DNA of 64,000 bases from Cocleimonas flava (GTDB lineage Bacteria; Pseudomonadota; Gammaproteobacteria; Thiotrichales; Thiotrichaceae). The DNA is taken from assembly GCF_004339015.1 (NCBI RefSeq), contig NZ_SMFQ01000002.1, positions 309,351-373,350 of the forward strand, in the 5' to 3' direction. Under the pieces are notes generated by a model. That model was not told the origin of the DNA, did not search any database, and was given only the letters and a program-made list of their open reading frames with translations. Shown here one piece after another: positions 3,257-43,785 of the stretch; the stretch's first letter is position 1, and every line of letters begins with the position of its first letter. The translations under genes and the position numbers were made by a program.

Positions 3257-3286
3257 CCACCCCCCTACTTACGGGCACTTTTTTTA
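3257..3286 (+). repeat. REP-like element, copy 2 ('ccacccccctacttacgggcacttttttt')
   Basis: Same core as the other copies. Intergenic between asnB and sodB. Confidence 0.7.
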
Positions 3287-26835: not shown

Positions 26836-28800
26836 TTATTGACCACGCATGAATAGCTTATCGAGCTGATCTACCGACATTTGCGTCCACGTTGGACGTC
26901 CGTGATTACACTGACCACTGCGCTCTGTGCGCTCCATATCACGCAACAAGGCATTCATCTCTGGAATCGTTAAACGGTGGTTCGCACGAACAGAACCATG
27001 ACAAGCCATAGTTGAGAGTATTTCATTCATTTCCTGCTGAATGCGTTCACTGCTGCCATGCTCCAGTAAATCAGACAGTACATCGCGCACTAACTGTTCC
27101 ACATTCGAATCTTTTAGCAAGCTAGGCACCGCACGAATGGCTAATTTTTCTGGCGCGAGTCTGTTCAACTCAAAACCCAGTTGCTCAAACGTTTCAGCAA
27201 ATTCTTCGGCGCAATCACCTTCTTTTTTACTCACAGATAATGAGCTAGGAACCAGCATCGGTTGAGAGCGTACATTGTCTTCCGCCATACTTTTCTTTAA
27301 GTATTCGTAGGTGATACGTTCGTGTGCCGCATGCATATCAACCACAACTAAACCTTCGGCATTTTCTGCCAGAATATAAATACCATGCAATTGTGCCACG
27401 GCAAAACCTAACGGCGGCACTTCACCAGTATTTTGATTTTCGCTAACAGGCATTGATGATGTGACATGCGTCGAAAGTTTTTCAGAAAACTTGTCTGAAA
27501 GTGGGGGGGTGTAATTAGATGAGCCACTGCGTTGATTTACCGATGGAATAAAGCTCGTATTCAAGCTGCTAGTAACATTTTCAACATTATTTTCAGAGTT
27601 ATCGCCGGCACTGTCATGCATGCGCTGATAAGCCGCCATTTGCTCTGCTACTTGCCCAGGCTGAATATTATTAACTGGTATATTCAACCGTTGCTGTGAC
27701 CTAATCGCTTCGCGGTTGTACTCCGCCATACTCATTTTTTCTGTCCCATTATTTGGGATAGCAGGGGCAGACTCAGCAGCCTCATTAGGTCGTACATCTG
27801 CTAACGCCTGATGCAGTGTTCGATACAGAAAATCATGCACCAAACGTGCATCACGAAAACGCACTTCGTGTTTGGTTGGGTGTGCATTGACATCCACTTT
27901 TTCTGGTGCAAGCTCAAGAAATAATGCATACGCAGGGTGTCGGCCGTGGAATAACACATCGCTGTACGCTTGACGTACCGCGTGAGTGACGACGCGGTCT
28001 TTAATGATTCTACCATTTACATAAAAATATTGAAGATCAGCTTGTGATCGTGAAAACGTCGGCAACCCAACCCAACCCCAAAGCTTTAAACCAGCTGCTT
28101 CATAATCCAGATACAGTGACTGCTCCATAAAAGCAGGACCACAAATTTCTGATACGCGTCGATCTGCTCCGACTCGCTCTAATGCGGGCTGTAATGTCAG
28201 TAAATTGCGTTGACCGTGGCGTAAGGTGATCCCGATTTGAAAATTGCTTAGGGATATCTTCTTTACCACTTCCTGCAGGTGTTTGAATTCGGTATTTTCA
28301 GTTTTTAAAAACTTGCGTCGTGCAGGTACATTATAAAATAAATCACGCACTTCAATGGTTGTACCTTTAGCGTGTGCAGTGGGCTCTGGATCATCAAACG
28401 CTTCTGCACCATCATCGCGATGTTGCGGCGAAACCGTCCAGCCCTGTTCGTTATCTTCCGTACGCGAGCTAATCGTCATCCGCGATACAGAAGCGATACT
28501 CGGCAACGCCTCACCACGAAAACCCAAGGAAGCGACATGTTCCAAGTCATCCAGTGAAGCAATCTTACTGGTCGCATGACGACTCAACGCCAGCGCTAAT
28601 TCTTCTTTGGGAATGCCCTTACCATCATCGCGGATACGAATGCGCTTTAAACCACCCTGCTCGATATCAATCTCGATTTTTTTCGAACCTGCATCAATGG
28701 AGTTTTCTAGCAATTCTTTAACCACAGATGCTGGGCGCTCTACCACCTCGCCTGCGGCAATCTGGTTAACTAAATGTGGGGGTAGTTGTTTGATGCTCAT
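26836..28800 (-). CDS. mutL: DNA mismatch repair protein MutL
   Basis: 654 aa. GHKL ATPase N-terminus '[13 protein letters not shown]', 'GFRGEAL'. C-terminal dimerisation domain. Confidence 0.95.
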
Positions 28801-28938: not shown

Positions 28939-29232
28939 TTAACGAGTAACCCAATAATCAGGTTTTCTATGCAAATGAGAAACTGCCACAACTAAAATTT
29001 CTTTCTTATCTTCGATATATTGATAAATTAAAGAGTAAGGAAAACTTTGGATCAAACACCTTCGTGTGAATTGACCTATTTGGACATAGGATTTTGGAAA
29101 CTTAATAATTCTAAGTTTTGAATTATTTAATTCATCCAGAAATCGAAAACCTAAGCCTTCTTGAATAGACTCGTAATACTCAAATGCCTCATCAAGTTCA
29201 GCCTGAGCAACTTCAAGAAACCTTACTTTCAT
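28939..29232 (-). CDS. Type II toxin, ParE/RelE superfamily
   Basis: 97 aa. The start overlaps the upstream antitoxin stop by 4 bp. 'FLEVAQAELDEAFEYYE' N-terminus and C-terminal 'RILHRK-like' region typical of ParE/RelE folds. Confidence 0.65.
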   Translation of the reverse strand: MKVRFLEVAQAELDEAFEYYESIQEGLGFRFLDELNNSKLRIIKFPKSYVQIGQFTRRCLIQSFPYSLIYQYIEDKKEILVVAVSHLHRKPDYWVTR

Positions 29233-29495
29233 TTCTTCATATATTTTGAAAACACCTGCTCATCTGATACTGACTTTAATTCACCTTTCTTATGGGCTTC
29301 TACTCGGGAATCAGCTTCCTTTGCCCATAATTCATCTATTCTAGGGTCAGGACTATCGAGGCTAGAAAGTAATTTTTCAGCCACATCTGCACGCTCATTC
29401 GCACTCAGTTCGAGTGCTTTATCTAATATAGAACTTGCTGAATTTGACATACATCGCTCTCTTATTAATTTTGAACTATTCAATATTATATCCAC
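29229..29495 (-). CDS. Antitoxin ('putative addiction module component' type)
   Basis: 88 aa. 'ILDKALELSANERADVAEKLLSSLDSPDPRIDELWAKEADSRVEAHKKGE'. Positioned 5' of and overlapping the toxin. Confidence 0.6.
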   Translation of the reverse strand: MDIILNSSKLIRERCMSNSASSILDKALELSANERADVAEKLLSSLDSPDPRIDELWAKEADSRVEAHKKGELKSVSDEQVFSKYMKK

Positions 29496-29603: not shown

Positions 29604-29984
29604 TTAATCGTCTTCCTTCTTTTTAAGCTTTGTTTTCTTTTTCGATTTAACTTTCTGCTCAGCCTTCTTCACGACTTTCTTTTTGGATTTGGCTTTTGCC
29701 TTACTTGGAGCAGAGACAACACCCTTAGTTAAAGATAGGCTCGACTTAATCTTTTTATACAGCTTTTCACCAATGCCTTTAACTTCCTTGATTTCTTCTA
29801 TCTTCTCAAACTTCTTATGTTGTTTTCGGTATTTTACAATATTTAGCGCTTTTTTCTCTCCGACACCCTTTAGATAATGCTGTAACGCACTTGCATCGGC
29901 TTTATTCAAGTTAACAATTTCCGCTGATGCAGAAAACGAGACAAAAGAAAGAAATACAGCAAAGAAAAGTGATTTTAATTTCAT
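29604..29984 (-). CDS. comEA: ComEA-like periplasmic helix-hairpin-helix DNA-binding protein with lysine-rich C-terminal tail
   Basis: 126 aa. Signal peptide 'LFFAVFLSFVSFSASA'. 'NLNKADASALQHYLKGVGEKKALNIVKYR' and 'IEEIKEVKGIGEKLYKKI' HhH motifs. 35-aa tail 'KAKAKSKKKVVKKAEQKVKSKKKTKLKKK'. Confidence 0.65.
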   Translation of the reverse strand: MKLKSLFFAVFLSFVSFSASAEIVNLNKADASALQHYLKGVGEKKALNIVKYRKQHKKFEKIEEIKEVKGIGEKLYKKIKSSLSLTKGVVSAPSKAKAKSKKKVVKKAEQKVKSKKKTKLKKKEDD

Positions 29985-30354: not shown

Positions 30355-30981
30355 ATGACTGATTTTCTCAACAATGCATTCGCCTTCCCTACGCTTTTCT
30401 ATACAGGCTTGCTGATTTTAACCGTACTTTACTGGCTTGCATCCAGCCTTGGTTTTGCAGACCTTGATCTTTCAGAAGGCGTAGAAATTGAAGTTCCAGA
30501 TGTTGCCGATACTTCTGGCTGGTTAAGCAAATTCAAACTTGATGGGATTCCACTGACCATCAGTATTTCTTTAGTTATCTTTTTTTCATGGGTAATTTGT
30601 TTTATTGCCGTACATTACTATCAGGATCAAATATCAAATAATCTTGTCGAAATATTCGTAGGCATCTGGATCATTATTCTAGCGCCCTTTATCTCAGCAC
30701 CCATTGTTGGAACATTACTTACACCACTAAAGCCATTCTTTCAAAAGCTAAAAGATAGTGCAGAAGGTCGACATGCAGATTCGCTGATTGGTCACCTCGC
30801 TATTGTAAGAACCAATAAAGTAACAATGAATTTCGGGGATGCAGAAATAAATGACGAAGGCGCAAACCTTATTTTAAAAATACGCGCTGAAGAACCGAAT
30901 GACTTTAAACGTGGTGATAGCGTCATCATCACTGAATATATCGCAGACGAAAATACATACCGGGTTAGAGCAACGGCATAA
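30355..30981 (+). CDS. yqiJ: YqiJ/NfeD-like inner-membrane protein (partner of flotillin)
   Basis: 208 aa. Three or four TM helices followed by a short C-terminal beta-rich (OB-like) domain ('HLAIVRTNKVTMNFGDAEIN...GDSVIITEY'). Directly upstream of an SPFH gene, as with E. coli yqiJK. Confidence 0.6.
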   Translation: MTDFLNNAFAFPTLFYTGLLILTVLYWLASSLGFADLDLSEGVEIEVPDVADTSGWLSKFKLDGIPLTISISLVIFFSWVICFIAVHYYQDQISNNLVEIFVGIWIIILAPFISAPIVGTLLTPLKPFFQKLKDSAEGRHADSLIGHLAIVRTNKVTMNFGDAEINDEGANLILKIRAEEPNDFKRGDSVIITEYIADENTYRVRATA

Positions 30982-31072
30982 CCCATTGGTACAAAACAGC
31001 TTCAATAAAATTAATAAAAATAGATTTAAAAAACTTAAAAATAAACGCTAAAACAAAAAAGGGTACATAAAA

Positions 31073-32929
31073 ATGGGTGGTTCACTGACTGTTTTCACAA
31101 TGATCGCGATTGCAGTAATCGCACTACTGGTGCTGATTATATTAATCTCCTTCGCGCGCTTTTATATCAAAGTGCCTCAGGGTTGGGCATTAATTATTAA
31201 TGATATGTCGAGTACACCTAAGGTTAAATTTACCGGTGGCATCGTGTGGCCTGTAATCAACAAAAAAGAATTGATGAAAATTTCATTAATTACCCTGGAA
31301 GTCGATAGAAAGAATAAAGACGGATTGATCTGTAAAGACAATATCCGTGCCGATATCGTCGTTGCCTTCTACATGCGCGTTAACGAAACGCAACAAGACG
31401 TGCTTAAAGTGGCAAAATCGATTGGCGTAGAAAGAGCCTCTGATAGAGATGCGGTACATGAGCTCTTCAATGCAAAATTCTCAGAAGCGTTGAAAACGGT
31501 TGGTAAGAATATGGATTTCGTTACCCTATTCGAAAATCGTATTGCATTTCGTGACAGCATCATCGAGGTTATTGGTAACGATCTAAATGGTTATGTTCTT
31601 GAAGACGTCGCGATTGATTACCTCGAACAAACACCAATGACGCATCTTGATCCACAAAATATTCTGGATGCTGAAGGTATTCGTAAAATCACTCAATTAA
31701 CCGCTATTCAAAGCGTCAGCACCAATGAACTATCACGTAATGAAGAACTAGCAATTACCAAAAAGAATGTAGAAACAAAAGAAGCAATGCTGGAGCTAGA
31801 ACGTCAGGAAGCCGACGCAACTGCCAGACAAAAGCGTGAAGTAGAAACGATTCAGGCACGCGAAGAAGCAGAAACCATCAAAGTTCAGGAGGAACAGCGC
31901 TTACTATCTGAACGCTCTCGTATAAAAACTGAAGAAGAACTTCAGGTGATGGAACAAAACAAAATGCGCGAAGTGGAAGTTTCTGAAAACAACCGTTTAC
32001 GTGCTGTAGCGATTGAAGAAGAGAAAGTAGGACGCGCACGCGAACTAGAAATCGTCTCCAAAGAACGCGAAGTAGAACTACAAGTCATCGAGAAAGAAAA
32101 AGCACTCGAAGTCGAAAGAAAAGAAATTGCCAATGTCATTCGTGAACGTGTAATCGTTGATAAAAGCGTTGCCGAACAAGAAGAAAAAATCAAAGAAGTC
32201 CGTGTAGTTGCCGAAGCAGACAGACTCAAGCAAGCAACAATTATCGCCGCAGAAGCACAAGCGGAAGAAGAGCTAGTGAAGCAGGTTAAACAAGCGCAGG
32301 CAGATGAAGTACAAGCGACGCACAAAGCGAAAGAAATCAACATTCTTGCGCAAGCTAACCTAGAAGCAGCGGCCAAAGAAGCGGACTCGAAGAAGCAATT
32401 GGCCGAAGGTACACAAGCAGAACAAGCCGCACCAGGTCTTGCTGACGCTCAAGTAAAAGAAGTGATGGCAGAAGCATTGCAAAAAGAAGGACTTGCTGAA
32501 GCGAAAGTCATGGAAGAGAAAATGGATGTCGAAGCAACAGGTAATGAGAAAATTGGTCTCGCTGCTGCGCTCGTTCAGAAAGAAAAATTCAAAGCAGAAG
32601 CTGAAGGCTTAATCGAGAAATTCAAAGCGATGAATGATATGAGCCCTGATTCGCGCCAGCATGAAGAATTCCGCATGCAACTCGAAAAAGACTTCGAGCA
32701 AGCACTCGCTGAGATCGAAGCGAATAAAGAGATCTCAGACGATCAAGCCAAGGTACTCGCTACTGCACTAGAAAGTGCAAATATCGATATCGTTGGTGGC
32801 GGAGATTATCTGCAATCATTCACAAAAGGATTAGGCTTAGGTAAAACCGTAGAAGGTGTTCTTGAGAAAAGCCCTGCACTTGAATCAGTACTGGGAACAT
32901 TACTCGCCTCAAAAGCTGCCTCTAAATAA
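31073..32929 (+). CDS. yqiK: Flotillin-like SPFH/band-7 protein
   Basis: 618 aa. N-terminal TM helix. SPFH domain ('FYIKVPQGWALIIND', 'DIVVAFYMRV'). Long E/A/K-rich coiled coil ('EAxxxE' flotillin-type repeats). C-terminal oligomerisation region. Confidence 0.8.
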   Translation: MGGSLTVFTMIAIAVIALLVLIILISFARFYIKVPQGWALIINDMSSTPKVKFTGGIVWPVINKKELMKISLITLEVDRKNKDGLICKDNIRADIVVAFYMRVNETQQDVLKVAKSIGVERASDRDAVHELFNAKFSEALKTVGKNMDFVTLFENRIAFRDSIIEVIGNDLNGYVLEDVAIDYLEQTPMTHLDPQNILDAEGIRKITQLTAIQSVSTNELSRNEELAITKKNVETKEAMLELERQEADATARQKREVETIQAREEAETIKVQEEQRLLSERSRIKTEEELQVMEQNKMREVEVSENNRLRAVAIEEEKVGRARELEIVSKEREVELQVIEKEKALEVERKEIANVIRERVIVDKSVAEQEEKIKEVRVVAEADRLKQATIIAAEAQAEEELVKQVKQAQADEVQATHKAKEINILAQANLEAAAKEADSKKQLAEGTQAEQAAPGLADAQVKEVMAEALQKEGLAEAKVMEEKMDVEATGNEKIGLAAALVQKEKFKAEAEGLIEKFKAMNDMSPDSRQHEEFRMQLEKDFEQALAEIEANKEISDDQAKVLATALESANIDIVGGGDYLQSFTKGLGLGKTVEGVLEKSPALESVLGTLLASKAASK

Positions 32930-32962
32930 AATCTGCTTTTAAATAATAGATAACCTTATCCT

Positions 32963-35900
32963 ATGTCCGATAATATTAACAAAGGCAATAACGGCGAAAA
33001 ATCGGCTGTAGATACTACAGTTGATACAAATAGCGACGCTGTAGATCAAGCTGTATCTGAAAGTAGCGCTTACGAGATTATTCGTAAGCGCCTCGAACAG
33101 CAAGCAAACGATCTAGAAGCCCACACTAAAACCTTAAACGAAGCGCGTTTAGAGGAATTTGGTAGCTCAGAAATGAGCGTGCTTGGGCGTTTGCGTGTTC
33201 GTACAGAAAACAATTGTGTCGCCAGAGATATTGCCCAAGTCGGCGATACCTTAATTTTTGGCTACAACGTTTTTATCGGGCTCAAAAAAGAAACGCATAT
33301 TGAAGACGTTTTCATGCTCTACAAGCTTGTCGAAAAAGACGGGCAATATGAGTTTGAAACACTTCCCGTAAATGAAAGCTTTCTCGGTGAAGCATCGTTT
33401 GTCGCAGACTTTAACGAGCTTTATACCTATTACAAAAATGCGCGATTAATTCAGCTCCTTGTTAAAGATAATAAGCTCTTAGCCTCTTTCCAGATCGGCG
33501 CGCAAATCACCGATATCCGTGTTTTTCGCTGGAGCATAGATAACCAGAACAAACTCACCTACATTGATAATCGTGGTGAATACGATATTGCACTGCCCTC
33601 ACCTTATGATTTCGAATGGGTAAACACCACGCGTGAAGATTCAGTAAACGGCAGACATCCACACATCAACATCCTTGATACGGTATTTGTCGAAACCATT
33701 GGTGGCGACCTTACCGTAAAAGTCGAAAACAATACAGAAACGGGCAAAGGTATTTACGCCGAACCGGTCGATGAAAAAAATCAATCGATTGACGATGCAG
33801 CGATTGCTTATGCCGATTTAGGCAAATTTGTACTGCTACAGATTACTCCCTACAAAGAACAAGTCACACGCTACTTGGTGTTTAACAAACAAAACAACCA
33901 GGTAAATCGTATTGATGAAATCGGACAATCCTGCCAACAGCTTCCAGAAGATCACGGCATTATTTTCCCCGGTGGTATTTACCTGCAAAACGGTGAGATA
34001 AAAACCTTCGCCGAAAAAACCAAAGGCATGCGCTTCAAACGTAGTATCCGCTCACCCAATGGTGAAGATATTCTGTATGTATTTTATGAAGCAGAAGAAG
34101 GCAGAATCGCGCTGTTCTCATACAATATGATCGAAAAAGATCTCGCCAATCCCTTATTCGGACATGGCTACAGTATTTATGATGACGGCAAAATGGTGAT
34201 CTTCAGCTCAGAAAGCGAAGAACCTACGCGCATTCATCCGATGCAAGTGTGGCAAACCGCCTTCACCTCAGAAGAATTCGCCACTAGCAGCAACACTAAC
34301 GCCTCCTTCTATACCAATATCGGTAATGCCGAACTGGTTCGTGGTATTTCAGAGCTGTACAGCATCTCTCGTACCATTGATAAACAATCCGCTTCTGCCA
34401 GTGTGTATAACGAACTATCACAAGCCTCAGAGCGTTTACAGAGCGCTTACTACTGGTTAGATAAACCCGAACTCTCTGATGTCAAAAGCACCTTACAAAA
34501 AATAAGTAAAACCTCAGAACTGGTTCTCGATGAGTTCGAAAAAGTAGAAAATATTCGCCAACGCGCTGATCAGGCAATGCAGGAAGCAGAGCAAACTCAG
34601 GCGGATATATTTTCAAAATTATTGTCTGATAGCTGGGATAAAGTTGAAGAATTTGTCGATGCTTTAGACAGTATCCGCAAACAACGCGGCCACTTACTCA
34701 CAATCAAAGAATACCGTTATATCGACCAGGCCCGCATCAAAGATATGGATGTAGCGCTAGTTGAAAAGCAAGAAGCGCTGGGTGAAGAGACGCTTAAGTT
34801 TTTATCGGAAGAGAAATCCTTAATCCCCTATCAGCAAAAGCTCGATAAGCTGGATAAAGAAGCAGAACAAGCCAAAACTCGCGCCGAAATTAAAACCGTC
34901 ATCGAAAACTATGAAAAGATGGCAGGCGACCTCGATCTAATCTCCGAATTAGTTTCCACGCTGCACGTTGAAGATGCCACGATTCGCACACGCATTATCG
35001 AAAGCATCTCCAGCATTTATGCCAAATTAAATCAGAGTAAAGCACGCGCACGCCATAAATATAAGGACTTAGGTTCAGCCGAAGCGGTTGCCCAGTTTAG
35101 CGTTCAATTCAAACTGTTTAGCCAAAGCATCGCCAACGCCGTCGGACTAGCAACATCGCCTGATAAAGCAGACGAACAACTCAACCGTTTACTGGTACAG
35201 CTGGAAGAACTGGAAGGTCAGTTCAGCGAACACGATGAATTCCTCGCAGACATAATTTCAAAACGCGATGAAGTTTATGAAACCTTTGAAACGCACAAAC
35301 AATCACTAATAGCAGAACGCCAGAGGCGAGCGCAAAACCTGCTTGATGCGGCAGAACGCATCCTCACCTCATTAAACAGACGCACGCAAAAACTCAGCGA
35401 TATTGATGCCTTAAACACCTTATTCGCCTCTGATCCGCTCGTTATTAAAATCCGCGATATTGCAGAAAAGCTACGTGAGATTGATGACAGCGTAAAAGCA
35501 GACGACATAGAAAGCCGACTCAAAAATAGCAAAGACCAGGCCTTACGCTCACAGCGTGACAAGTCAGAAATCTATGAAGAAGGCGGCAAGGTCATCAAAT
35601 TAGGCCCACGCCATCGCTTTAGTGTGACAACGCAGGAACTTGATTTAAGCATTCTGTTTAAAGACGACCAGTTAAACCTACACTTGAATGGCACCGACTA
35701 TGTAGAGCCGATTGACAACGCAGAACTGAATGCACAAAAAGCCTTTTGGCATGTGGATATCGAATCCGAATCAGCGGTGCTTTATCGCGCAGAATATTTG
35801 GCGGGATTGATTTTAGAAAAAGCCACATTAAAGCAAGATAATCTCGATTTAGTCATGCTTGAAATTGCAGCGAAGGACGAAGCCGAACTGGTTAAAATCG

Positions 35901-38419
35901 TACACGACTTTGCCACACCGCGTTATAAAGAAGCGTATGAGAAAGGTATTCACGATCACGACGCGAGCAAAATTCTACAACAATTATTGCCGATTCAAAC
36001 AACCAGTGGCTTACTGCGTTTTCCACCGTTAGAAAGAGGCTTAGCCGCACTATTCTGGTCAGTCACACAAACACAAGCACCGCAAAATAGCTGGCAAAAA
36101 CGTGCCTTAAGCGCTAAACAACTGGTCGATGTATTCAATCATCACGATGCCAGCACAAGATTACAGGAAGAAATCCAGCAGCAATTTAATCTCTTCCTTG
36201 AAAGCTATCCAATCACGATTGATGAAGCGACCGCACAACGCAGTTGCGAATACTTAAGTCAGGAACTGGCACAGGAAAAAATCAACTTTGTCTCCAGCCA
36301 ATACGCGCAAAAATTACTCGATGAGTTACGTCGTAATCTGCAAGTTGCCAAAGCATGGAAAACCTTTGAAAGCAGTTTAGAACAGCTCAACAACCAACAT
36401 CACGAGCGCTGGGCGCTCGCAAGCTCGTGGCTAACTGCGATGTTAGCGGCGCAACAAAACAAAGATGAAAACAGCCAGGCAAATCAAACACTGGCGCATT
36501 ACGTACCAGAAGCGGTTGCTTTACTGTTATGTGAATCGATTACGTGGAAAGAAAATAATACTGCTCTGGAAATCACCATCAGCGATTTAATGGGCGACCA
36601 TCCACGCATTCACAAACAACAATTACACCTGAGTTTAGATGACTTCTTAAGTCGCTATCATCAGCACAGAAATCACGTACTTCCCGGTTATCACGACTAC
36701 TTGAGCATTCGCAGCCGTATCATGAAAGAATCGGCAGAATCTTTACGTCTGGATGAATTCAAACCCAGGCCGTTATCCTCGTTTGTTAGAAACCGTCTTA
36801 TCAATGAGCTCTACCTGTCATTAATCGGCGACAACCTGGCAAAACAAATGGGAACCGTCGGTGAAGATAAACGCACCGACTTGATGGGCTTGTTGATGAT
36901 GATTTCGCCGCCCGGTTACGGTAAAACCACTTTAATGGAATACGTAGCCAGCCGTCTGGGATTGATTTTCATGAAGATCAACTGTCCGTCATTAGGACAC
37001 GATGTATTATCGCTCGATCCAGAACAAGCACCGAATGCGACCGCCGCTCAAGAGTTAAACAAACTCAATCTCGCCTTAGAGATGAGCAACAACGTGATGC
37101 TATATCTGGATGATATTCAACACACCCATCCAGAATTCTTACAGAAATTTATCTCATTAAGTGACGGCACCCGTCGCGTAGATGGCATCTGGAAAGGCAA
37201 AACCAAAACCTATGATATGCGCGGCAAACGCTTCTGCATCATCATGGCAGGTAACCCATACACCGAATCCGGCGATGTATTCCAGATACCCGACATGCTC
37301 GCCAACCGTGCCGATATTTACAACCTCGGCGACATGCTAGGCGATCACGAAGAAGCCTTCTCACTCAGTTATATCGAAAACAGCTTAACCGCCAATCCCG
37401 TGCTTGCACCATTGGCAACGCGTGAAATGTCAGACACTTATTTATTGATTGATATGGCAAAAGGCAAACAAGTCGCCTCCACCGATCTCAAACACAATTA
37501 CAGCGGCGCAGAGCTAAACGAAATCGTCGAAGTGTTAAAGAAAATGTTCGTAATTCAGGAAGTCATCCTGAAAGTAAACCAGCAATACATCGCCTCTGCC
37601 GCGCAAAACGATGCCTACCGAAAAGAGCCACCGTTCAAGCTGCAAGGCAGTTACCGTAATATGAATAAAATGGCAGAAAAGCTATCAGCGGTAATGAATG
37701 AAGAAGAAATGATGCAAATGATCGAAGATCATTACCTGGGTGAAGCGCAACTACTCACCAACGGCGCAGAAGAAAACCTGTTAAAACTCGCCGAACTGCG
37801 CGGCAATATGACCAAAGAACAAAAAGCGCGCTGGACAGCAATCAAAAAAGATTTCATGAAAAACAAAATGACCGGCAATGAAGAAGCCACCATCGGCTTA
37901 GACATTAGTGAAAAACTCGGCTTCCTGGTCGACAATATCGAAGCAGTGAATCAATCACTCAAACAAAACGACAGCAGTGAAAAACTCGTTACGCAGTTAT
38001 CTGATATTTCAAGCACCCTGAAAAGCTCGTTACAAGCGATGCAGCAGGCATCAGAAAAATCCGCTGAAAACGACACGGCAGACACCGAATTAAAAGCCGA
38101 CAAAGCCTCGATTCTGCTCGCCACCTCACTCAGCAATATGTCTCACAGCATCGAGAATGTGCAGAAGTCACTGGCAGAACCAAAAGCCACAGACACCTTA
38201 TTAGCCGAATCACTAAAAGCGCTATCGGAAAACCTAAGCAATAAAAACAGCTCACAAAAAACCACCAGCGAAGAAATCGTAGTACAGCTCTCTAAAATCG
38301 TAGAAGGCATGACAGCAATGAATCGCGAACTGGAAGAAGTCTCAGAAGCCTCGCAAGAAAAAGCGAAATGGTTTTCGAGATTGACTCGAAAAGAGAAAGA
38401 GAAGGAAAAAGGGTTGTAG
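32963..38419 (+). CDS. Giant (1818 aa) coiled-coil protein with MoxR/AAA_5-type ATPase core, co-operonic with yqiJK
   Basis: Starts 34 nt after the yqiK stop. About 440-aa N-terminal beta-rich domain. About 800 aa of heptad-rich helix. Walker A 'ISPPGYGKTTLMEY', Walker B 'VMLYLDD', sensor-1 'CIIMAGNP'. About 300-aa C-terminal coiled coil ending 'KEKEKEKGL'. Confidence 0.75.
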   Translation: MSDNINKGNNGEKSAVDTTVDTNSDAVDQAVSESSAYEIIRKRLEQQANDLEAHTKTLNEARLEEFGSSEMSVLGRLRVRTENNCVARDIAQVGDTLIFGYNVFIGLKKETHIEDVFMLYKLVEKDGQYEFETLPVNESFLGEASFVADFNELYTYYKNARLIQLLVKDNKLLASFQIGAQITDIRVFRWSIDNQNKLTYIDNRGEYDIALPSPYDFEWVNTTREDSVNGRHPHINILDTVFVETIGGDLTVKVENNTETGKGIYAEPVDEKNQSIDDAAIAYADLGKFVLLQITPYKEQVTRYLVFNKQNNQVNRIDEIGQSCQQLPEDHGIIFPGGIYLQNGEIKTFAEKTKGMRFKRSIRSPNGEDILYVFYEAEEGRIALFSYNMIEKDLANPLFGHGYSIYDDGKMVIFSSESEEPTRIHPMQVWQTAFTSEEFATSSNTNASFYTNIGNAELVRGISELYSISRTIDKQSASASVYNELSQASERLQSAYYWLDKPELSDVKSTLQKISKTSELVLDEFEKVENIRQRADQAMQEAEQTQADIFSKLLSDSWDKVEEFVDALDSIRKQRGHLLTIKEYRYIDQARIKDMDVALVEKQEALGEETLKFLSEEKSLIPYQQKLDKLDKEAEQAKTRAEIKTVIENYEKMAGDLDLISELVSTLHVEDATIRTRIIESISSIYAKLNQSKARARHKYKDLGSAEAVAQFSVQFKLFSQSIANAVGLATSPDKADEQLNRLLVQLEELEGQFSEHDEFLADIISKRDEVYETFETHKQSLIAERQRRAQNLLDAAERILTSLNRRTQKLSDIDALNTLFASDPLVIKIRDIAEKLREIDDSVKADDIESRLKNSKDQALRSQRDKSEIYEEGGKVIKLGPRHRFSVTTQELDLSILFKDDQLNLHLNGTDYVEPIDNAELNAQKAFWHVDIESESAVLYRAEYLAGLILEKATLKQDNLDLVMLEIAAKDEAELVKIVHDFATPRYKEAYEKGIHDHDASKILQQLLPIQTTSGLLRFPPLERGLAALFWSVTQTQAPQNSWQKRALSAKQLVDVFNHHDASTRLQEEIQQQFNLFLESYPITIDEATAQRSCEYLSQELAQEKINFVSSQYAQKLLDELRRNLQVAKAWKTFESSLEQLNNQHHERWALASSWLTAMLAAQQNKDENSQANQTLAHYVPEAVALLLCESITWKENNTALEITISDLMGDHPRIHKQQLHLSLDDFLSRYHQHRNHVLPGYHDYLSIRSRIMKESAESLRLDEFKPRPLSSFVRNRLINELYLSLIGDNLAKQMGTVGEDKRTDLMGLLMMISPPGYGKTTLMEYVASRLGLIFMKINCPSLGHDVLSLDPEQAPNATAAQELNKLNLALEMSNNVMLYLDDIQHTHPEFLQKFISLSDGTRRVDGIWKGKTKTYDMRGKRFCIIMAGNPYTESGDVFQIPDMLANRADIYNLGDMLGDHEEAFSLSYIENSLTANPVLAPLATREMSDTYLLIDMAKGKQVASTDLKHNYSGAELNEIVEVLKKMFVIQEVILKVNQQYIASAAQNDAYRKEPPFKLQGSYRNMNKMAEKLSAVMNEEEMMQMIEDHYLGEAQLLTNGAEENLLKLAELRGNMTKEQKARWTAIKKDFMKNKMTGNEEATIGLDISEKLGFLVDNIEAVNQSLKQNDSSEKLVTQLSDISSTLKSSLQAMQQASEKSAENDTADTELKADKASILLATSLSNMSHSIENVQKSLAEPKATDTLLAESLKALSENLSNKNSSQKTTSEEIVVQLSKIVEGMTAMNRELEEVSEASQEKAKWFSRLTRKEKEKEKGL

Positions 38420-38463
38420 GTTTTTATTTTATATAGTTTAAATAAATTCAGTGGTTTATCGCA

Positions 38464-38559
38464 CAATGTACGTCGACGATTCCTTATTGAATCTACGACG
38501 GACTTTCTTGGCTCTTGGTGAGCCTAGGAAAGCCACCCCCCTACTTTGGGGCGTTTTTT
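38464..38559. repeat. Composite: inverted copy of the 'gtccgtcgtagattc...gaatcgtcgacgtaca' element fused to a REP-like core ('agccaccccctactttggggcgtttttt')
   Basis: 38466-38530 is the reverse complement of 54362-54430 at about 85% identity. It is abutted by a REP core at 38533-38559. Confidence 0.65.
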
Positions 38560-38573
38560 ATTAAAAAAAGCAC

Positions 38574-38626
38574 TGGCTCGCCTTTGAGGCGATACTAGAA
38601 CTTAGCGTGTAACGGGCACTTTTTCT
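38574..38626 (+). repeat. Repeat family C ('gcctttgaggcgatactagaacttagcgtgtaacgggcacttttt'); second copy at 39803-39853
   Basis: About 85% identical to 'gcctttaaggcgatactagtacttagcgtgtagtggcagttttt'. Internal palindrome 'tatcgcctttaaggcgata'. Confidence 0.6.
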
Positions 38627-38688
38627 TAATTTAAAAATACACAAGAACCTGATAAGTTAACAATAATTGTTGTTAAAGGAAAAGTCTC

Positions 38689-38868
38689 ATGAATGTATCA
38701 CTGCCACTTGAAGAATACATAAATGAAAAAGAGAACAGAAGAAACGAAAAGCTAGATGCTTTGCTCATAGAAAGGCTTGAAAGCTTAAACAATGGTAAAA
38801 AAACCATACCAGCAGAAGAAGTTAAAAACAGTATATTAAAGAGCCTCAAACAAAATAGTCAAAAATAA
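38689..38868 (+). CDS. Small ORF (59 aa), charged helical protein, possible antitoxin/regulator-like
   Basis: Not in the supplied track (shorter than 60 aa). 'aaagga' RBS 8 nt upstream of the ATG. Translates to MNVSLPLEEYINEKENRRNEKLDALLIERLESLNNGKKTIPAEEVKNSILKSLKQNSQK. Confidence 0.3.
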   Translation: MNVSLPLEEYINEKENRRNEKLDALLIERLESLNNGKKTIPAEEVKNSILKSLKQNSQK

Positions 38869-38996
38869 TCATGGGCATCTCAATACTATTCACTGAGAGT
38901 ACTCAAACCACTTGAAGCTCGAAATATAGAATTATAATTGATGCTGACGGCTGATCATTTAGGTTGTTTAAAGAGATTAAATAATAGAGTTTAGAG

Positions 38997-39023
38997 TCAC
39001 CCCCTACTTTTATGTGTTTTTTG
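38997..39023 (+). repeat. REP-like element ('gtcaccccctacttttatgtgttttttg')
   Basis: Core match. Confidence 0.6.
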
Positions 39024-39044
39024 TCCATATTAAATGAAAAACAC

Positions 39045-39110
39045 ACCCTACGGGTCGTCGTCACTGTATTCCGACGTTGTCTTCGCTGCGCTTCGGCTAG
39101 GCACTTTTTT
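39045..39110 (+). repeat. Repeat family B ('cacccta-cgggtcgtcgtcactg-yrttccracgttgtct...cggct-ggcactttttt'), copy 1 of 3
   Basis: About 80% identical to 46163-46238 and to 54530-54600. Confidence 0.65.
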
Positions 39111-39120
39111 ATTAAGTTAA

Positions 39121-39149
39121 GTCACCCCCCACCTTTGGGGCACTTTTTC
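39121..39149 (+). repeat. REP-like element ('gtcaccccccacctttggggcacttttt')
   Basis: Core match. 14 nt upstream of the next CDS. Confidence 0.65.
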
Positions 39150-39163
39150 AAAGGATATAAATC

Positions 39164-39718
39164 ATGAATTGTACGAGTTGCAACAACGGTTTTTTAAAGC
39201 CCAGTAGTATTGAAGGACAGTTTCCCGCTCATACCTGCACAGACTGTGGTGGAAACTGGATTCTCATAGAAGATTACGCGGCATGGTTAACGCTCAATCC
39301 AGACTATCAATTTTCTGAAAATATAAAAATCGAACCAGAAGCCGAAGATACCAAGAAGGCATTAATCTGCCCTGCATCGGGTGCCATCATGAGAAAATTC
39401 CGTATCTCAGCATCTAATCAACATCGAGTAGATCACAGTTCCGCTGTCGGTGGAATTTGGTTAGATCGAGGGGAGTGGGAATTACTTAAAGCAGAAGGCT
39501 TGGCAGGTTCGTTAAATGCAATCGTAACAAACCAATGGCAAAGCAAAATCAGAGAAAACAGTGCAGAACAAACCTTTAGCAATCTCTATAAAGACAAATT
39601 TGGAATTGATAGCTACGAAAAAGTAAAAGAGTTCAGGGCTTGGCTAAATGAACAACCACAACAGGCAGAATTAAAAGCTTATTTACTTGCTGAAGATCCG
39701 TATTCGGCAGAGGTATAA
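39164..39718 (+). CDS. Zinc-ribbon protein with one intact and one degenerate zf-TFIIB-like repeat
   Basis: 184 aa. 'CTSCNNG...(17 aa)...CTDCGGNWILIEDYAAWL' is an intact Cys4 ribbon. The second copy 'ICPASGAIMRKF...VGGIWLDRGEWELL' keeps the GxWLDxGEL signature but has lost cysteines. Confidence 0.5.
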   Translation: MNCTSCNNGFLKPSSIEGQFPAHTCTDCGGNWILIEDYAAWLTLNPDYQFSENIKIEPEAEDTKKALICPASGAIMRKFRISASNQHRVDHSSAVGGIWLDRGEWELLKAEGLAGSLNAIVTNQWQSKIRENSAEQTFSNLYKDKFGIDSYEKVKEFRAWLNEQPQQAELKAYLLAEDPYSAEV

Positions 39719-40001: not shown

Positions 40002-40072
40002 GGTTGAGTAGCAAAATGGTTATGCAGCGGTTTGCAAAACCGCCTATCCCGGTTCGATTCCGGGCTCAACCT
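40002..40072 (+). tRNA. tRNA-Cys (GCA)
   Basis: Acceptor stem GGTTGAG/CTCAACC. Anticodon loop 'tTTGCAaaa' (GCA). T-arm 'GGTTCGATTCC'. Discriminator U. No encoded CCA. Collinear with E. coli tRNA-Cys. Confidence 0.9.
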
Positions 40073-40146
40073 TCATTCTCATAAAAGTCATATTTACAGT
40101 GTTAACCAAACACTAAAATAATAGATTAGTTATAGTAAGACCATCT

Positions 40147-40233
40147 GCCCAGGTGGCGAAATTGGTAGACGCAAGGGACTTAAAATCCCTCGATGGTAAC
40201 ATCGTGCCGGTTCGATTCCGGCCCTGGGCACCA
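40147..40233 (+). tRNA. tRNA-Leu (UAA)
   Basis: 'GCCCAGGTGGCGAAATTGGTAGACGCAAGGGACTTAAAATCCCTCGATGGTAACATCGTGCCGGTTCGATTCCGGCCCTGGGCACCA'. Long variable arm. Anticodon TAA. Encoded CCA. Near-identical to E. coli leuZ. Confidence 0.92.
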
Positions 40234-40263
40234 TTCTCTATAGACTAAAATGTATTAATTAAA

Positions 40264-41313
40264 ATGGTGAAAAATTTGTCATATAAAGTATTAGATATTT
40301 TTTCTGGATGTGGTGGTTTATCTCTTGGCCTGGAGCAAGCTGGTTTTGAAATTGTATTAGGCATAGATAATTGGCAAGATGCTCTTAACACTTTTAAAAA
40401 AAATCATATAAATTCAGAAACCTATTGTCATGATCTATCTAAAATTGATTACAATCATATCGAAAAAAATTATTTAAAAGATGGTATAGATGTCATCGTA
40501 GGTGGCCCACCATGTCAAGGTTTCTCCATTTCTGGAAAAAGAGACCCAAGTGACCCAAGAAATAAACTATATACATCTTTTGTAAAATCCGTAAAACATT
40601 TCAAACCAAAAGCTTTTGTGATGGAAAACGTACCTAATTTAGCATCGATGCAACAAGGTAGAATCAAAGATATTATTACTTCCGAGTTTGAATCTCTAGG
40701 TTACTCAATAAAATCGGAGCGATTGCTTACTTCAGACTATGGCGTCCCACAAAATAGAAAAAGATTCATAATGGTTGGCTTATTAAATGACACTGAATTT
40801 TCATTTCCGGCCAAAACCCACTTTGAAAATAAAATTACTACAGAGCAAGCTATAAGCGACTTGCCTGAAAACTCAGTGGTTTGTGGCGCCGGATACCTTA
40901 GCAAACCTCTTTCGAACTATCAAAAACACATTAGAGGAAAGTCAAAAGGTATTTTCAATCATGTAATAACAAATCATACTGAAAAAACTACTTCCATAAT
41001 ATCCCTAGTACCTGATGGGGGAAATTATAAAGACCTTCCTAATAAATACAAAAACACTCGTAACGTGAACATAGCTTGGACCAGATTTAATAGCAAAAAA
41101 CCTAGTCTTACTATAGATACCGGACACAGACATCACTTTCATTATAAATATAATAGGGTGCCAACAGTTAGAGAATCAGCACGCTTGCAGTCTTTTCCAG
41201 ATGATTTCATATTTTTAGGTTCAAAAACAAGTCAATATAAACAAGTTGGTAATGCTGTCCCCCCCATCCTGTCAAAATCTTTAGGTTTAGCGTTATTGAA
41301 CAACCTAGGTTAA
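40264..41313 (+). CDS. DNA (cytosine-5)-methyltransferase, copy 1
   Basis: 349 aa. Motif I 'FSGCGGLSLG', IV 'GGPPCQGFS', VI 'ENVPNL', VIII 'QNRKRFIMVG', IX 'RESARLQSFPDDF', X 'GNAVPP'. Starts 31 nt after tRNA-Leu. AT-rich (about 33% GC). Confidence 0.9.
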   Translation: MVKNLSYKVLDIFSGCGGLSLGLEQAGFEIVLGIDNWQDALNTFKKNHINSETYCHDLSKIDYNHIEKNYLKDGIDVIVGGPPCQGFSISGKRDPSDPRNKLYTSFVKSVKHFKPKAFVMENVPNLASMQQGRIKDIITSEFESLGYSIKSERLLTSDYGVPQNRKRFIMVGLLNDTEFSFPAKTHFENKITTEQAISDLPENSVVCGAGYLSKPLSNYQKHIRGKSKGIFNHVITNHTEKTTSIISLVPDGGNYKDLPNKYKNTRNVNIAWTRFNSKKPSLTIDTGHRHHFHYKYNRVPTVRESARLQSFPDDFIFLGSKTSQYKQVGNAVPPILSKSLGLALLNNLG

Positions 41314-41317
41314 ACCT

Positions 41318-42736: not shown

Positions 42737-43785
42737 TGAAATTAAAAGTAGCATCCTTATTTACTGGTCTAGGAGGCATGGACCTTGGTATCACTGGAGG
42801 TTTTAAATATTTAGATAAAGAATACCAAAAATACAACTTTGAAATCGCTTATGCTATGGATTTTGATAAACCAACATGTAAAATCTACAACGATAATTTC
42901 AATCACACTTGCTACCACCAAGACATTACAAAGTTATCAGCAAACGATGTTCCAGAACATGATATTTTATTAGGAGGATTTCCTTGTCAGTCTTTTTCCG
43001 TATTGGCACAAAATCCTCCTCGACTTGGATATAAAGATATTAAAGGCCAACTTTTTTTTGAGATGTGCCGTATCTTACAGCACCACAGACCACGTTTTTT
43101 TGTCGCAGAAAACGTAAAAGGAATCTTGTCCGCAAACAAAAAAAAAGCATTTCCTCTAATTGTAAAAGAATTTGAAAAGTCTGGTTATTTTGTAAAATAT
43201 CAAGTACTAAATTCCGCACATTATGGAGTGCCACAGAAAAGAGAACGTGTATTTATAGTCGGCTTTAAATACATTCAAGACTATAATAACTTTGAATTTC
43301 CAAAGCCTATAATGACTGAGAACTTTACTCCTTTGAATAAGGTTTTAGAACCTGAAAATACAATTGATGATAAATATTACTTTAGTGAAAAAGCAGTTGC
43401 TGGTTTAAAAGCAACAAAAAATTTAAAAACCATGAATAAAGGCAGAGCGCAGGACATTAATGGACCTAGCAATACTGTAAGTGCACATCTAGCAAAGGTA
43501 AGTTTGAATAGCACTGATCCAGTATTAAGAATTAATAACAAATACAGAATGTACACGCCTCGCGAAGTGGCACGAATACAGTCATTCCCAGAAAGCTTTC
43601 AACTAACAGGCTCTAAAACACTAAATTACAAGGCACTTGGCAACGCTGTAGCTCCTGTAATGATGTGGTACTTAACACAAGAAATACAAAAGACAATTGA
43701 AAAAAGCATCTTCGAAAAGTCGAAGTCGCAAGGGTCCATAGCAAACAATTATATAAGCCACGAACAACTTAATTTATCGCTTTAA
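42736..43785 (+). CDS. DNA (cytosine-5)-methyltransferase, copy 2
   Basis: 349 aa. 'FTGLGGMDLG', 'GGFPCQSFS', 'ENVKGI', 'QKRERVFIVG', 'REVARIQSFPESF', 'GNAVAP'. Only about 30% identical to copy 1, so not a recent duplicate. Confidence 0.9.
   Translation: MKLKVASLFTGLGGMDLGITGGFKYLDKEYQKYNFEIAYAMDFDKPTCKIYNDNFNHTCYHQDITKLSANDVPEHDILLGGFPCQSFSVLAQNPPRLGYKDIKGQLFFEMCRILQHHRPRFFVAENVKGILSANKKKAFPLIVKEFEKSGYFVKYQVLNSAHYGVPQKRERVFIVGFKYIQDYNNFEFPKPIMTENFTPLNKVLEPENTIDDKYYFSEKAVAGLKATKNLKTMNKGRAQDINGPSNTVSAHLAKVSLNSTDPVLRINNKYRMYTPREVARIQSFPESFQLTGSKTLNYKALGNAVAPVMMWYLTQEIQKTIEKSIFEKSKSQGSIANNYISHEQLNLSL

What the first reader, a model, noticed from the sequence alone, without database searches (positions are those of the whole stretch)
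30355..38419. yqiJ (NfeD-like) - flotillin (SPFH) operon extended by a giant 1818-aa coiled-coil MoxR/AAA_5-type ATPase
Seen in sequence: three same-strand genes with 92-nt and 34-nt spacers. The first is a small polytopic NfeD/YqiJ-like protein. The second is a flotillin-like SPFH protein with a long EA-repeat coiled coil. The third is a 1818-aa protein with an about 440-aa beta-rich N-terminal domain, about 800 aa of heptad-rich helix, a compact AAA+ core (Walker A 'PPGYGKTT', Walker B 'LYLDD', sensor-1 'MAGNP' as in MoxR/midasin/McrB-type AAA_5 modules), and a further about 300-aa coiled coil. The first two genes match the E. coli yqiJ-yqiK pair, whose function is itself poorly defined. As far as I can judge without a search, no described system ties a midasin-like giant ATPase to a flotillin/NfeD pair. 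Inference: a membrane-microdomain scaffold coupled to a mechano-ATPase. It could act in membrane remodelling or repair, or as a membrane-anchored defence/abortive-infection sensor.
Basis: partly seen in the sequence, partly recalled or inferred. Interest (0 to 1): 0.75.

Follow-up and report, generated by a model that had tools for sequence, protein, structure and literature searches.

The report
Known flotillin–YqiJ–giant AAA+ membrane-stress operon
The three genes are real and truly belong together, but this membrane-protein trio had already been described by comparative genomics and is part of the Pseudomonas aeruginosa "bac" operon, so only its mechanism is still unknown.

Summary
Three same-strand genes encode a 3-TM YqiJ-type protein, a YqiK-type flotillin and an 1818-aa cytoplasmic ATPase. 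The ATPase has an N-terminal beta-propeller (DUF3686), a coiled coil, a compact helical domain, one AAA+ module and a variable tail.

The linkage is not chance. In 65 of 68 genomic loci with upstream DNA, homologues of genes 1 and 2 lie just upstream of the giant gene. Four members at only 30-36% identity keep the same order. The three proteins' divergences are correlated (r 0.87-0.91).

The novelty claim fails. Ravi et al. 2024 (PMC11237479) describe this operon, including the abbreviated three-gene form seen here. In 49 of 67 loci it extends upstream with a CesT-like DUF2170 gene and PspA. In P. aeruginosa that extended form is bacABCDEF, linked to biofilm, rhamnolipid and virulence phenotypes.

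A Zn-ribbon gene at 39164-39718 also belongs to the cluster. "MoxR/midasin-like" is only partly supported: fold matches to ClpB-NBD2, CbbQ, midasin and NorQ are equally weak.

The most likely role is envelope-stress membrane remodelling, with the ATPase acting on flotillin or PspA assemblies. That step is inferred. Defence and DNA-repair readings are poorly supported. Interest is modest.

The parts
30355..30981 (+). Gene 1: YqiJ/YuaF-type small membrane protein (three hydrophobic segments plus a soluble C-terminal domain; the 'NfeD2' partner of flotillin-type SPFH proteins)
   Evidence: ORF. Hydrophobic segments at aa ~7-37, 62-90 and 92-125. Family profile against E. coli YqiJ: hhalign prob 85.6%, E 5.6e-6; hmmsearch E 1.6e-9. 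A homologue lies upstream of the flotillin gene in 65 of 68 loci. No Pfam hit.
31073..32929 (+). Gene 2: YqiK-type flotillin (N-terminal TM, SPFH region, long E/A/K-rich coiled coil, conserved C-terminal region)
   Evidence: BLASTP against E. coli YqiK: 29% identity over 483 aa, E 7e-45. hhalign prob 99.9%, E 1.8e-32. One TM segment at aa 1-36. Median 64% identity to orthologues in other orders, with very many invariant columns. A distant orthologue (L086) carries Pfam Band_7.
32963..38419 (+). Gene 3: 1818-aa cytoplasmic ATPase of the DUF3686 family (NCBI name 'DNA repair ATPase'; inferred BacE orthologue)
   Evidence: Pfam DUF3686 + DUF7902 + weak AAA/AAA_22/AAA_5. 100% identical to a Cocleimonas flava protein, with more than 4794 homologues. 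No hydrophobic segment.
33110..34453 (+). Gene 3, aa 50-497: beta-propeller domain (DUF3686), preceded by an N-terminal helix (aa ~31-66)
   Evidence: Pfam E 4.8e-200. AlphaFold2 pLDDT 86, pTM 0.82, all-beta blades. Foldseek against PDB: WD40, Sec12, Kelch and sialidase propellers, E 6e-8 to 1e-5.
34430..35572 (+). Gene 3, aa ~490-870: coiled-coil-like helical region including DUF7902 (aa 619-701)
   Evidence: Heptad contrast above the 95th percentile of shuffles in windows between aa 491 and 812. DUF7902 E 1.2e-26. Helices at aa 455-519 in the model.
35642..36742 (+). Gene 3, aa ~894-1260: compact, mostly helical domain with small beta-sheets and no recognisable relative
36860..37552 (+). Gene 3, aa ~1300-1530: single AAA+ module (Walker A aa 1316-1323, Walker B LYLDD aa 1380-1384, a beta-hairpin before sensor-1, sensor-1 MAGNP aa 1428-1432, conserved Arg in LANRAD at about aa 1449)
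37940..38416 (+). Gene 3, aa ~1660-1818: poorly conserved S/E/K-rich helical tail
   Evidence: The consensus is mostly 'x' here in the alignment of 75 homologues. Heptad signal at aa 1723-1806.
39164..39718 (+).
   Evidence: Pfam Zn_ribbon_TFIIB. 31% identical (E 1e-36) to the Zn-ribbon gene in the Teredinibacter operon. A homologue is present in 28 of 67 loci with downstream DNA.

Best explanation
This is the Cocleimonas flava copy of a widespread, vertically conserved membrane-stress module. It is the 'abbreviated' YqiJ - flotillin - giant AAA+ operon (plus a Zn-ribbon gene). In most relatives the module is extended upstream by a CesT-like DUF2170 chaperone and a PspA/IM30 (bacterial ESCRT-III) protein, and downstream by a rhomboid protease, a PLD-family hydrolase or an M90 peptidase. 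In P. aeruginosa the extended form is bacABCDEF.

Shown here: the identity of the parts and their linkage.

Inferred mechanism. The flotillin, anchored by its N-terminal TM segment and partnered by the 3-TM YqiJ protein, builds an SPFH-type assembly on the cytoplasmic face of the inner membrane. The soluble giant ATPase docks on it through its beta-propeller and coiled-coil arm. It then uses ATP hydrolysis in its single AAA+ module (presumably as a ring oligomer) to assemble, remodel or dismantle the flotillin scaffold, PspA polymers (encoded elsewhere in this genome), or client membrane proteins. The outcome would be repair or reorganisation of damaged membrane. This would be a role analogous to, but not homologous with, Vps4 acting on ESCRT-III or FtsH acting inside the HflK/C cage.
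For: Identity of the parts.

Linkage. J-F-G order holds in 65 of 68 loci from many gammaproteobacterial orders, plus a Phenylobacterium locus and Lysobacterales. It also holds in four members only 30-36% identical in the propeller. Pairwise identities of the three proteins are correlated at r 0.87-0.91.

Membrane-stress context. A PspA homologue is present in 49 of 67 loci. Rhomboid (39), PLD (23), Zn-ribbon (28) and M90 (4) genes occur downstream out of 67 loci. TelA or PspA lie next to distant members.

Literature. The operon and its abbreviated form are described, with an ATP-dependent membrane-remodelling role proposed (PMC11237479). bacA-F are co-transcribed and co-regulated, with a sigma-54-type promoter proposed from sequence analysis. 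Mutants in bacA and bacB (pa3731) show biofilm, rhamnolipid, swarming or virulence phenotypes (PMC10948618). PaFlo3 is listed as SPFH and PA14_16160 as a short NfeD (PMC13086221). YuaF/YqiJ are NfeD-like partners of flotillin-type SPFH proteins (PMC2636767). An SPFH protein links PspA to the membrane in B. subtilis, and no Vps4 equivalent is known in bacteria (PMC7619361; PMC10936438).

Conservation. The giant protein keeps 52-60% identity over ~1,700 aa across orders, and the flotillin 57-68%. That pattern is typical of a constrained cellular machine.
Against: No biochemical or structural data exist for the giant ATPase in any organism, and its substrate is unknown.

This window, and the Thiotrichaceae relatives L004, L007 and L049, carry no PspA or DUF2170 gene near the operon. 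A PspA-centred mechanism therefore needs a partner encoded elsewhere, or the flotillin itself is the client.

The beta2-alpha2 loop has no aromatic pore-loop motif, and Walker B is DD rather than DE in all 75 homologues. A classical threading unfoldase is thus not obviously indicated.

Deleting paFlo3 in P. aeruginosa gave only about a 20% reduction in biofilm (PMC13086221).

In three Methylococcales loci the giant gene stands without the flotillin pair.

The AAA+ core is modelled at only moderate confidence (pLDDT 50-88).
Confidence: 0.6

Rival explanations
1. Membrane-protein quality-control cage. The flotillin/YqiJ assembly would enclose client membrane proteins, and the giant AAA+ would extract or unfold them for cleavage by the frequently co-encoded rhomboid or M90 proteases. 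This is analogous to HflK/C-FtsH or stomatin-NfeD protease pairs. It is a variant of the main model with a different client.
For: Rhomboid is present in 39 of 67 loci and the M90/SEC-C peptidase in 4 of 67. SPFH-NfeD pairs are classically linked to proteases (PMC2636767). The best fold matches of the AAA+ core include the ClpB, ClpA and ClpC unfoldase modules.
Against: This window has neither a rhomboid nor an M90 gene next to the operon. There is no aromatic pore-loop motif. The protease genes are variable accessories, not core components.
Confidence: 0.2
2. Anti-phage or abortive-infection defence system. It would sense membrane perturbation and fire a variable effector (PLD, rhomboid or peptidase).
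For: In this window the operon sits between a ParE toxin-antitoxin pair and a restriction-modification island. The downstream genes vary between loci in an effector-like way. In Teredinibacter an integrase and a transposase follow the cluster.
Against: None of the three proteins hits PADLOC. The restriction-modification genes are a separate low-GC (0.31-0.35) island that begins right after tRNA-Cys/tRNA-Leu at 40002-40233, so the proximity comes from a tRNA integration hotspot. The trio is highly conserved (52-68% identity across orders) and co-diverges like a vertically inherited unit. In Pseudomonas it lies among housekeeping genes such as thrC and recJ. Its conserved partners are PspA-type stress proteins. 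The reported P. aeruginosa phenotypes are biofilm and virulence.
Confidence: 0.07
3. A DNA-repair ATPase, as the database name ('DNA repair ATPase'; Pfam 'ATPase involved in DNA repair') and the neighbouring mutL gene might suggest.
For: The NCBI and Pfam names. mutL lies about 1.5 kb upstream on the opposite strand. recJ lies about 6 kb downstream in one Pseudomonas locus.
Against: No DNA-binding, nuclease or SMC/Rad50-type domain was found. The mutL adjacency was not seen in the other loci whose flanking genes were inspected, and the conserved neighbours there are membrane proteins. No paper in the searched library holds 'DUF3686' or links 'DNA repair ATPase' to flotillin. The name looks like an uncurated legacy label.
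Confidence: 0.03

Closest known systems
Flotillin - YqiJ/YuaF - beta-propeller/coiled-coil AAA+ operon, with or without CesT-like DUF2170 and PspA (Ravi, Anantharaman, Aravind, Gennaro et al., mSystems 2024, PMC11237479)
   Same: All three core components have the same architectures and the same gene order. The 'abbreviated operon' without the CesT-PspA dyad is explicitly described there and matches this window.
   Different: Nothing essential differs. This locus additionally keeps the accessory Zn-ribbon gene and lacks the PLD and rhomboid genes.
Pseudomonas aeruginosa bacABCDEF (PA3732-PA3727; Mace 2008, Wallart 2024 PMC10948618; PaFlo3, PMC13086221)
   Same: The gene order in a sister species (L050, P. 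paraeruginosa) is DUF2170 - PspA - YqiJ-like - flotillin-like - giant ATPase - PLD. Pseudomonas orthologues of the giant protein are ~58% identical to it.
   Different: The window lacks bacA (DUF2170), bacB (PspA) and bacF (PLD). No sigma-54-like -24/-12 site was found upstream of gene 1. The equation BacE = giant ATPase is inferred from gene order, not read from the paper.
E. coli yqiJ-yqiK and B. subtilis yuaF-floT (NfeD2-SPFH2 pairs)
   Same: Genes 1 and 2 are homologues of this pair. The gene order is the same.
   Different: The E. coli pair has no giant ATPase downstream; sibD/ibsD follow instead. The window's flotillin belongs to a much more tightly conserved subfamily (median 67% pairwise identity).
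Vps4 / ESCRT-III and HflK/C-FtsH (works-like analogies)
   Same: Each pairs an AAA+ ATPase genetically or physically with a membrane-bound polymer or cage (PspA is an ESCRT-III superfamily member; flotillin is SPFH).
   Different: They are not homologous. There is no MIT domain, no classical-AAA second region of homology, no aromatic pore loop and no protease domain. The ATPase is about four times larger, with a propeller and a coiled-coil arm.
MoxR-type AAA+ (CbbQ, NorQ, RavA) and midasin
   Same: A single AAA+ module with a beta-hairpin before sensor-1 and an 'NP...(17 aa)...R' sensor-1 to arginine spacing. From my own recollection of MoxR motifs, that spacing resembles MoxR; it was not tested here. 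CbbQ, midasin and NorQ are among the best fold matches.

Membership tests
Flotillin-YqiJ-giant AAA+ operon (Ravi et al. 2024; bacC-D-E core) | Membrane protein with TM + band-7/SPFH + coiled coil + flotillin region | tested here: met
   N-terminal TM. 29% identity to YqiK, E 7e-45. hhalign prob 99.9%.
Flotillin-YqiJ-giant AAA+ operon (Ravi et al. 2024; bacC-D-E core) | 3TM protein of the YqiJ/YuaF type | tested here: met
   Three hydrophobic segments. hhalign against YqiJ prob 85.6%. Profile E 1.6e-9.
Flotillin-YqiJ-giant AAA+ operon (Ravi et al. 2024; bacC-D-E core) | [quoted passage not shown] | tested here: met
   DUF3686 E 5e-200. Propeller model and Foldseek hits. Heptad region. AAA+ motifs and fold.
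Flotillin-YqiJ-giant AAA+ operon (Ravi et al. 2024; bacC-D-E core) | Conserved co-directional gene order YqiJ - flotillin - ATPase | tested here: met
   65 of 68 loci, plus 4 distant members.
Extended Psp-type operon (bacABCDEF) | CesT/Tir-like DUF2170 + PspA/IM30 dyad directly upstream | tested here: not met
   phmmer with the Pseudomonas DUF2170 and PspA proteins finds nothing in the 64-kb window. The upstream gene is a divergent ComEA-like HHH_3 gene. The dyad is present in 49 of 67 other loci. The window is therefore the abbreviated form.
SPFH / Band-7 superfamily | Recognisable SPFH domain | tested here: inconclusive
   Pfam Band_7/Flot gives no hit even at E 10. The profile search against PDB finds nothing. 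hhalign against QmcA gives only 5% probability. Homology to YqiK over its SPFH region is strong, and a distant orthologue carries Band_7. Membership therefore follows by transitivity; the fold itself was not modelled here.
NfeD | C-terminal OB-fold beta-barrel domain homologous to NfeD | tested here: inconclusive
   hhalign against E. coli YbbJ gives 2% probability, and there is no Pfam NfeD hit. The NfeD relationship of YqiJ/YuaF rests on published NMR data (PMC2636767). The structure of gene 1 was not modelled here.
MoxR / AAA_5 (midasin-like) | AAA_5-type core that is a better match than other AAA+ clades, with a helix-2 insert | tested here: inconclusive
   [not shown]
MoxR / AAA_5 (midasin-like) | Partner protein with a VWA/MIDAS domain | tested here: not met
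   No VWA domain among the neighbours in the window or in the loci whose genes were listed.
Vps4 / classical AAA | MIT or other N-domain plus an aromatic pore loop 1 and a second region of homology | tested here: not met
   There is no MIT hit. The beta2-alpha2 loop, 'KINCPSLGHDVLSLDPEQAP', lacks an aromatic-hydrophobic pair and is conserved as such.
Known anti-phage defence systems (PADLOC-DB 2.0) | Match to any defence-protein model | tested here: not met
   0 families for all three proteins at E 0.01.
DNA-repair ATPases (SMC/Rad50/RecN-like) | ABC-type head domains, or a DNA-binding or nuclease domain, and repair-gene context | tested here: not met
   Only DUF3686, DUF7902 and AAA+ were found. 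The conserved neighbours are membrane-stress genes.

The most novel reading that the evidence does not exclude
The giant propeller/coiled-coil AAA+ ATPase is the missing bacterial counterpart of Vps4. It would be an ATP-driven remodeller or disassembly factor for PspA/IM30 (ESCRT-III) polymers, flotillin cages, or both. It would be recruited by the flotillin-YqiJ platform, evolved independently of the archaeal and eukaryotic Vps4, and able to work in trans on a PspA encoded elsewhere (as would be needed in Cocleimonas). Ravi et al. hint at this; reviews still state that bacteria lack such an enzyme (PMC7619361).
Probability: 0.25. Interest if true: 0.8.

Novelty: already known. Interest (0 to 1): 0.3.

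Why it matters
As a discovery it adds little. The operon type, including its three-gene short form, is already in the literature, and its Pseudomonas orthologue has published mutant phenotypes.

It still marks an open problem. These ~1,600-2,000-aa ATPases are strongly conserved and have no biochemistry, no structure and a misleading database name ('DNA repair ATPase').

The family is genetically welded to two membrane-organising systems whose dynamics in bacteria are unexplained: flotillin/SPFH and PspA/ESCRT-III. Working out its substrate would show how bacteria power the remodelling of these scaffolds.

Two practical outputs come from this check. The annotation 'DNA repair ATPase' should be treated as unsupported. 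The Zn-ribbon gene at 39164-39718 should be counted as part of the cluster.

Tried and rejected
- Pfam, NCBIfam and PADLOC on genes 1 and 2 gave no hits, even at E 10 for Pfam.
- Single-sequence and profile searches of PDB sequences with genes 1 and 2 gave nothing meaningful. With the giant protein they gave only marginal hits.
- hhalign of the gene-1 and gene-2 families against the canonical E. coli NfeD-stomatin pair YbbJ/QmcA was not significant. I therefore do not claim direct NfeD or stomatin homology from my own tests.
- A search for a fold relative of the helical domain at aa 894-1260 found none.
- A sigma-54 promoter like that proposed for bacA was not found. There is no site in the 370-nt region upstream of gene 1, and window-wide matches are at chance level.
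- Sigma-70 promoter and terminator scans gave counts at or below shuffle expectation. Only a weak terminator-like hairpin at 38539-38551 follows the giant gene.
- Literature searches for 'DUF3686' and for 'DNA repair ATPase' with flotillin returned zero papers. The PA3728 and PA3729 mentions elsewhere are incidental.
- I considered a link to the Arc antagonism-resistance clusters and rejected it. Arc2 is PA4317-23, a different MoxR-VWA system.
- Chance adjacency was rejected on the synteny statistics.

Full report
OBSERVATION. The window has three co-directional ORFs at 30355-30981 (208 aa), 31073-32929 (618 aa) and 32963-38419 (1818 aa). All three are invariant in an alignment of 75 homologues.

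Gene 1 has three hydrophobic segments and a soluble C-terminal domain. Gene 2 has a single N-terminal TM segment. The giant protein has none, so it is cytoplasmic.

WHAT THE PARTS ARE. Pfam, NCBIfam and PADLOC find nothing for genes 1 and 2. PDB sequence searches also fail, even with family profiles.

I fetched E. coli yqiJ-yqiK. Gene 2 is 29% identical to YqiK over 483 aa (BLASTP E 7e-45). Its family profile aligns to YqiK with 99.9% probability and E 3.5e-54. The gene-1 family aligns to YqiJ with 85.6% probability and E 1.6e-9. So the pair is a YqiJ/YqiK-type pair.

Comparisons with the canonical NfeD-stomatin pair YbbJ/QmcA are not significant. 'NfeD-like' therefore rests on published structural work on YuaF and YqiJ (PMC2636767), not on my tests.

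The giant protein is 100% identical to a Cocleimonas flava protein that NCBI names 'DNA repair ATPase'. Its Pfam content is DUF3686 (aa 50-497, E 5e-200), DUF7902 (aa 619-701) and weak AAA, AAA_22 and AAA_5 hits at aa 1309-1434.

AlphaFold2 on aa 30-520, with 75 aligned homologues, gives pLDDT 86 and pTM 0.82. The model is an N-terminal helix followed by an all-beta domain. Foldseek matches that domain to WD40, Sec12, Kelch and sialidase propellers at E 6e-8 to 1e-5.

A second model covers aa 870-1660 (pLDDT 80). It shows a confidently folded, mostly helical domain at aa ~894-1260 (pLDDT ~95) with no PDB relative. The AAA+ core that follows is modelled less confidently.

A crude heptad score places coiled-coil-like sequence at aa ~490-830 and ~1720-1806 only.

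Two sequence features are worth recording. Walker B is DD, not DE, in every homologue. The beta2-alpha2 loop has no aromatic pore-loop motif.

IS THE LINKAGE REAL? Yes. A scan of one genome per species returned 522 relatives, and I examined the best 80 loci. I called ORFs and searched them with the window's proteins and with the neighbours seen in Pseudomonas and Teredinibacter.

Of 68 loci with at least 3 kb upstream, 60 have the YqiJ-like and flotillin-like genes directly upstream on the same strand. Five more have both genes with a small insertion or an ORF-calling artefact. Only three, all Methylococcales, have the giant gene alone.

An exhaustive HMMER search with the propeller found 724 clusters at 50% identity with E <= 1e-3, and 249 with E <= 1e-30. 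Most full-length members are 1,600-2,000 aa. Four members only 30-36% identical still have a ~205-245-aa gene, then a ~650-680-aa gene, then the giant gene. Those neighbours hit the gene-1 and gene-2 profiles at E 6e-17 to 5e-187.

Across 65 loci the pairwise identities of the three proteins are correlated (Pearson 0.87-0.91). The flotillin (median pairwise identity 67%) and the ATPase (58%) are strongly constrained.

THE WIDER CLUSTER. In 49 of 67 loci a DUF2170 gene and a PspA/IM30 gene precede the trio. Downstream genes, out of 67 loci, are a rhomboid protease (39), a Zn-ribbon protein (28), a PLD-family hydrolase (23), a ~78-aa protein (22) and an M90/SEC-C peptidase (4).

The window's 184-aa Zn-ribbon gene at 39164-39718 is 31% identical (E 1e-36) to the one in the Teredinibacter operon.

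The window and its Thiotrichaceae relatives (L004, L007, L049) lack the DUF2170-PspA dyad. I found no sigma-54-type site upstream of gene 1.

WHAT IS ALREADY KNOWN. Ravi et al. (mSystems 2024; preprint 2020; PMC11237479) describe an operon that combines CesT/Tir-PspA with three components:
[quoted passage not shown] That is this locus.

In P. aeruginosa the extended form is the biofilm-associated cluster. BacA is the DUF2170 protein and BacB is PspA. PA14_16160 is called a 'short NfeD' and PA14_16180 is PaFlo3, an SPFH protein. The two downstream genes, bacE and bacF, are co-transcribed with them. All five partner proteins rise 6- to 13-fold in a bacA mutant. A sigma-54 promoter is proposed from sequence. 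Mutants in bacA and bacB (pa3731) have biofilm, rhamnolipid, swarming or virulence defects (PMC10948618; PMC13086221).

The gene order in P. paraeruginosa (L050) is DUF2170 - PspA - YqiJ-like - flotillin-like - giant - PLD. BacE is therefore the giant ATPase by inference from order. I did not see this stated in the paper. I found no biochemical or structural study of the ATPase. Reviews still say bacteria lack a Vps4-like partner for PspA (PMC7619361).

MECHANISM. Shown: the identity and tight co-inheritance of the parts; the cytoplasmic location of the ATPase and the membrane anchoring of the other two proteins; and frequent coupling to PspA, rhomboid, PLD and TelA.

Inferred: the flotillin/YqiJ pair forms a membrane-bound SPFH assembly. 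The ATPase docks through its propeller and coiled-coil arm. It then uses its AAA+ module to assemble, remodel or clear the scaffold, PspA polymers or enclosed clients during envelope stress.

I put about 0.85 on membership in the described module and about 0.45 on this specific mechanism, hence 0.6 overall. The closest rival is a quality-control version in which clients are handed to rhomboid or M90 proteases (0.2).

RIVALS. Defence (0.07) has no PADLOC hit. The neighbouring restriction-modification genes are a distinct low-GC island that begins immediately after tRNA-Cys/tRNA-Leu. That island holds two Dcm methylases flanking a BpuJI-type endonuclease, plus a NERD-UvrD helicase.

DNA repair (0.03) rests on a legacy name and on an adjacency to mutL. 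That adjacency was not seen in the other loci whose flanking genes were inspected.

VERDICT. The functional-linkage inference is supported. The novelty claim is not. This is an ordinary member of an already described but mechanistically uncharacterised system, so interest is modest (0.3). The open question worth pursuing is whether this ATPase is the bacterial engine for flotillin or PspA remodelling.

Noticed in passing
window 40002-45952: tRNA-Cys (40002-40072) and tRNA-Leu (40147-40233) are followed at once by a low-GC (0.31-0.35) island. It holds two C5-cytosine methylases (40264-41313 and 42736-43785) flanking a BpuJI-type restriction endonuclease (41318-42736), then a NERD-UvrD helicase (44081-45952). 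It looks like a tRNA-inserted restriction-modification/defence islet unrelated to the operon.
   Followed up: partly
window 28939-29495 (-): A ParE-toxin / 'Unstab_antitox' antitoxin pair sits between mutL (26836-28800) and a ComEA-like HHH_3 gene (29604-29984). A GGDEF gene (25520-26728) lies between mutL and miaA (24366-25301), which in many bacteria are adjacent genes.
   Followed up: no
window 38420-39163: A 745-nt gap separates the giant gene from the Zn-ribbon gene, with only a 59-aa ORF (38689-38868, no family hit). In relatives this position often holds rhomboid, PLD or M90 genes, so those genes may have been lost here. A weak terminator-like hairpin lies at 38539-38551.
   Followed up: partly
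[not shown]
   Followed up: partly
window 37100-37114 (giant protein aa 1380-1384): Walker B is hhhhDD rather than DE in all 75 aligned homologues. The loop where pore loop 1 would sit has no aromatic residue. Both are unusual for a threading AAA+ unfoldase.
   Followed up: no
L016 3164-15259; L020; L022: Methylococcales genomes carry the giant ATPase without the flotillin/YqiJ pair upstream. L016 also has two fragments of the giant gene (3164-3538 and 4595-5443) and three copies of a 178-aa ORF (2537, 5511, 9341). This suggests rearrangement, perhaps by a repeated or mobile element.
   Followed up: partly
L087 12586-13701; L088 13001-14221; L086 12902-13648: In distant members of the family, a TelA (toxic-anion-resistance) gene or a convergently oriented PspA gene lies next to the giant ATPase. 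These are further links to envelope-stress proteins.
   Followed up: no
window 31073-32929: Pfam Band_7/Flot models miss this flotillin entirely (no hit at E 10), although it is 29% identical to YqiK. Pfam-based censuses of SPFH proteins probably undercount this conserved subfamily.
   Followed up: partly
L002 15604-19915: In Teredinibacter the cluster is followed by a phage-type integrase and an IS110 transposase. The module may occasionally sit at the edge of mobile DNA.
   Followed up: no
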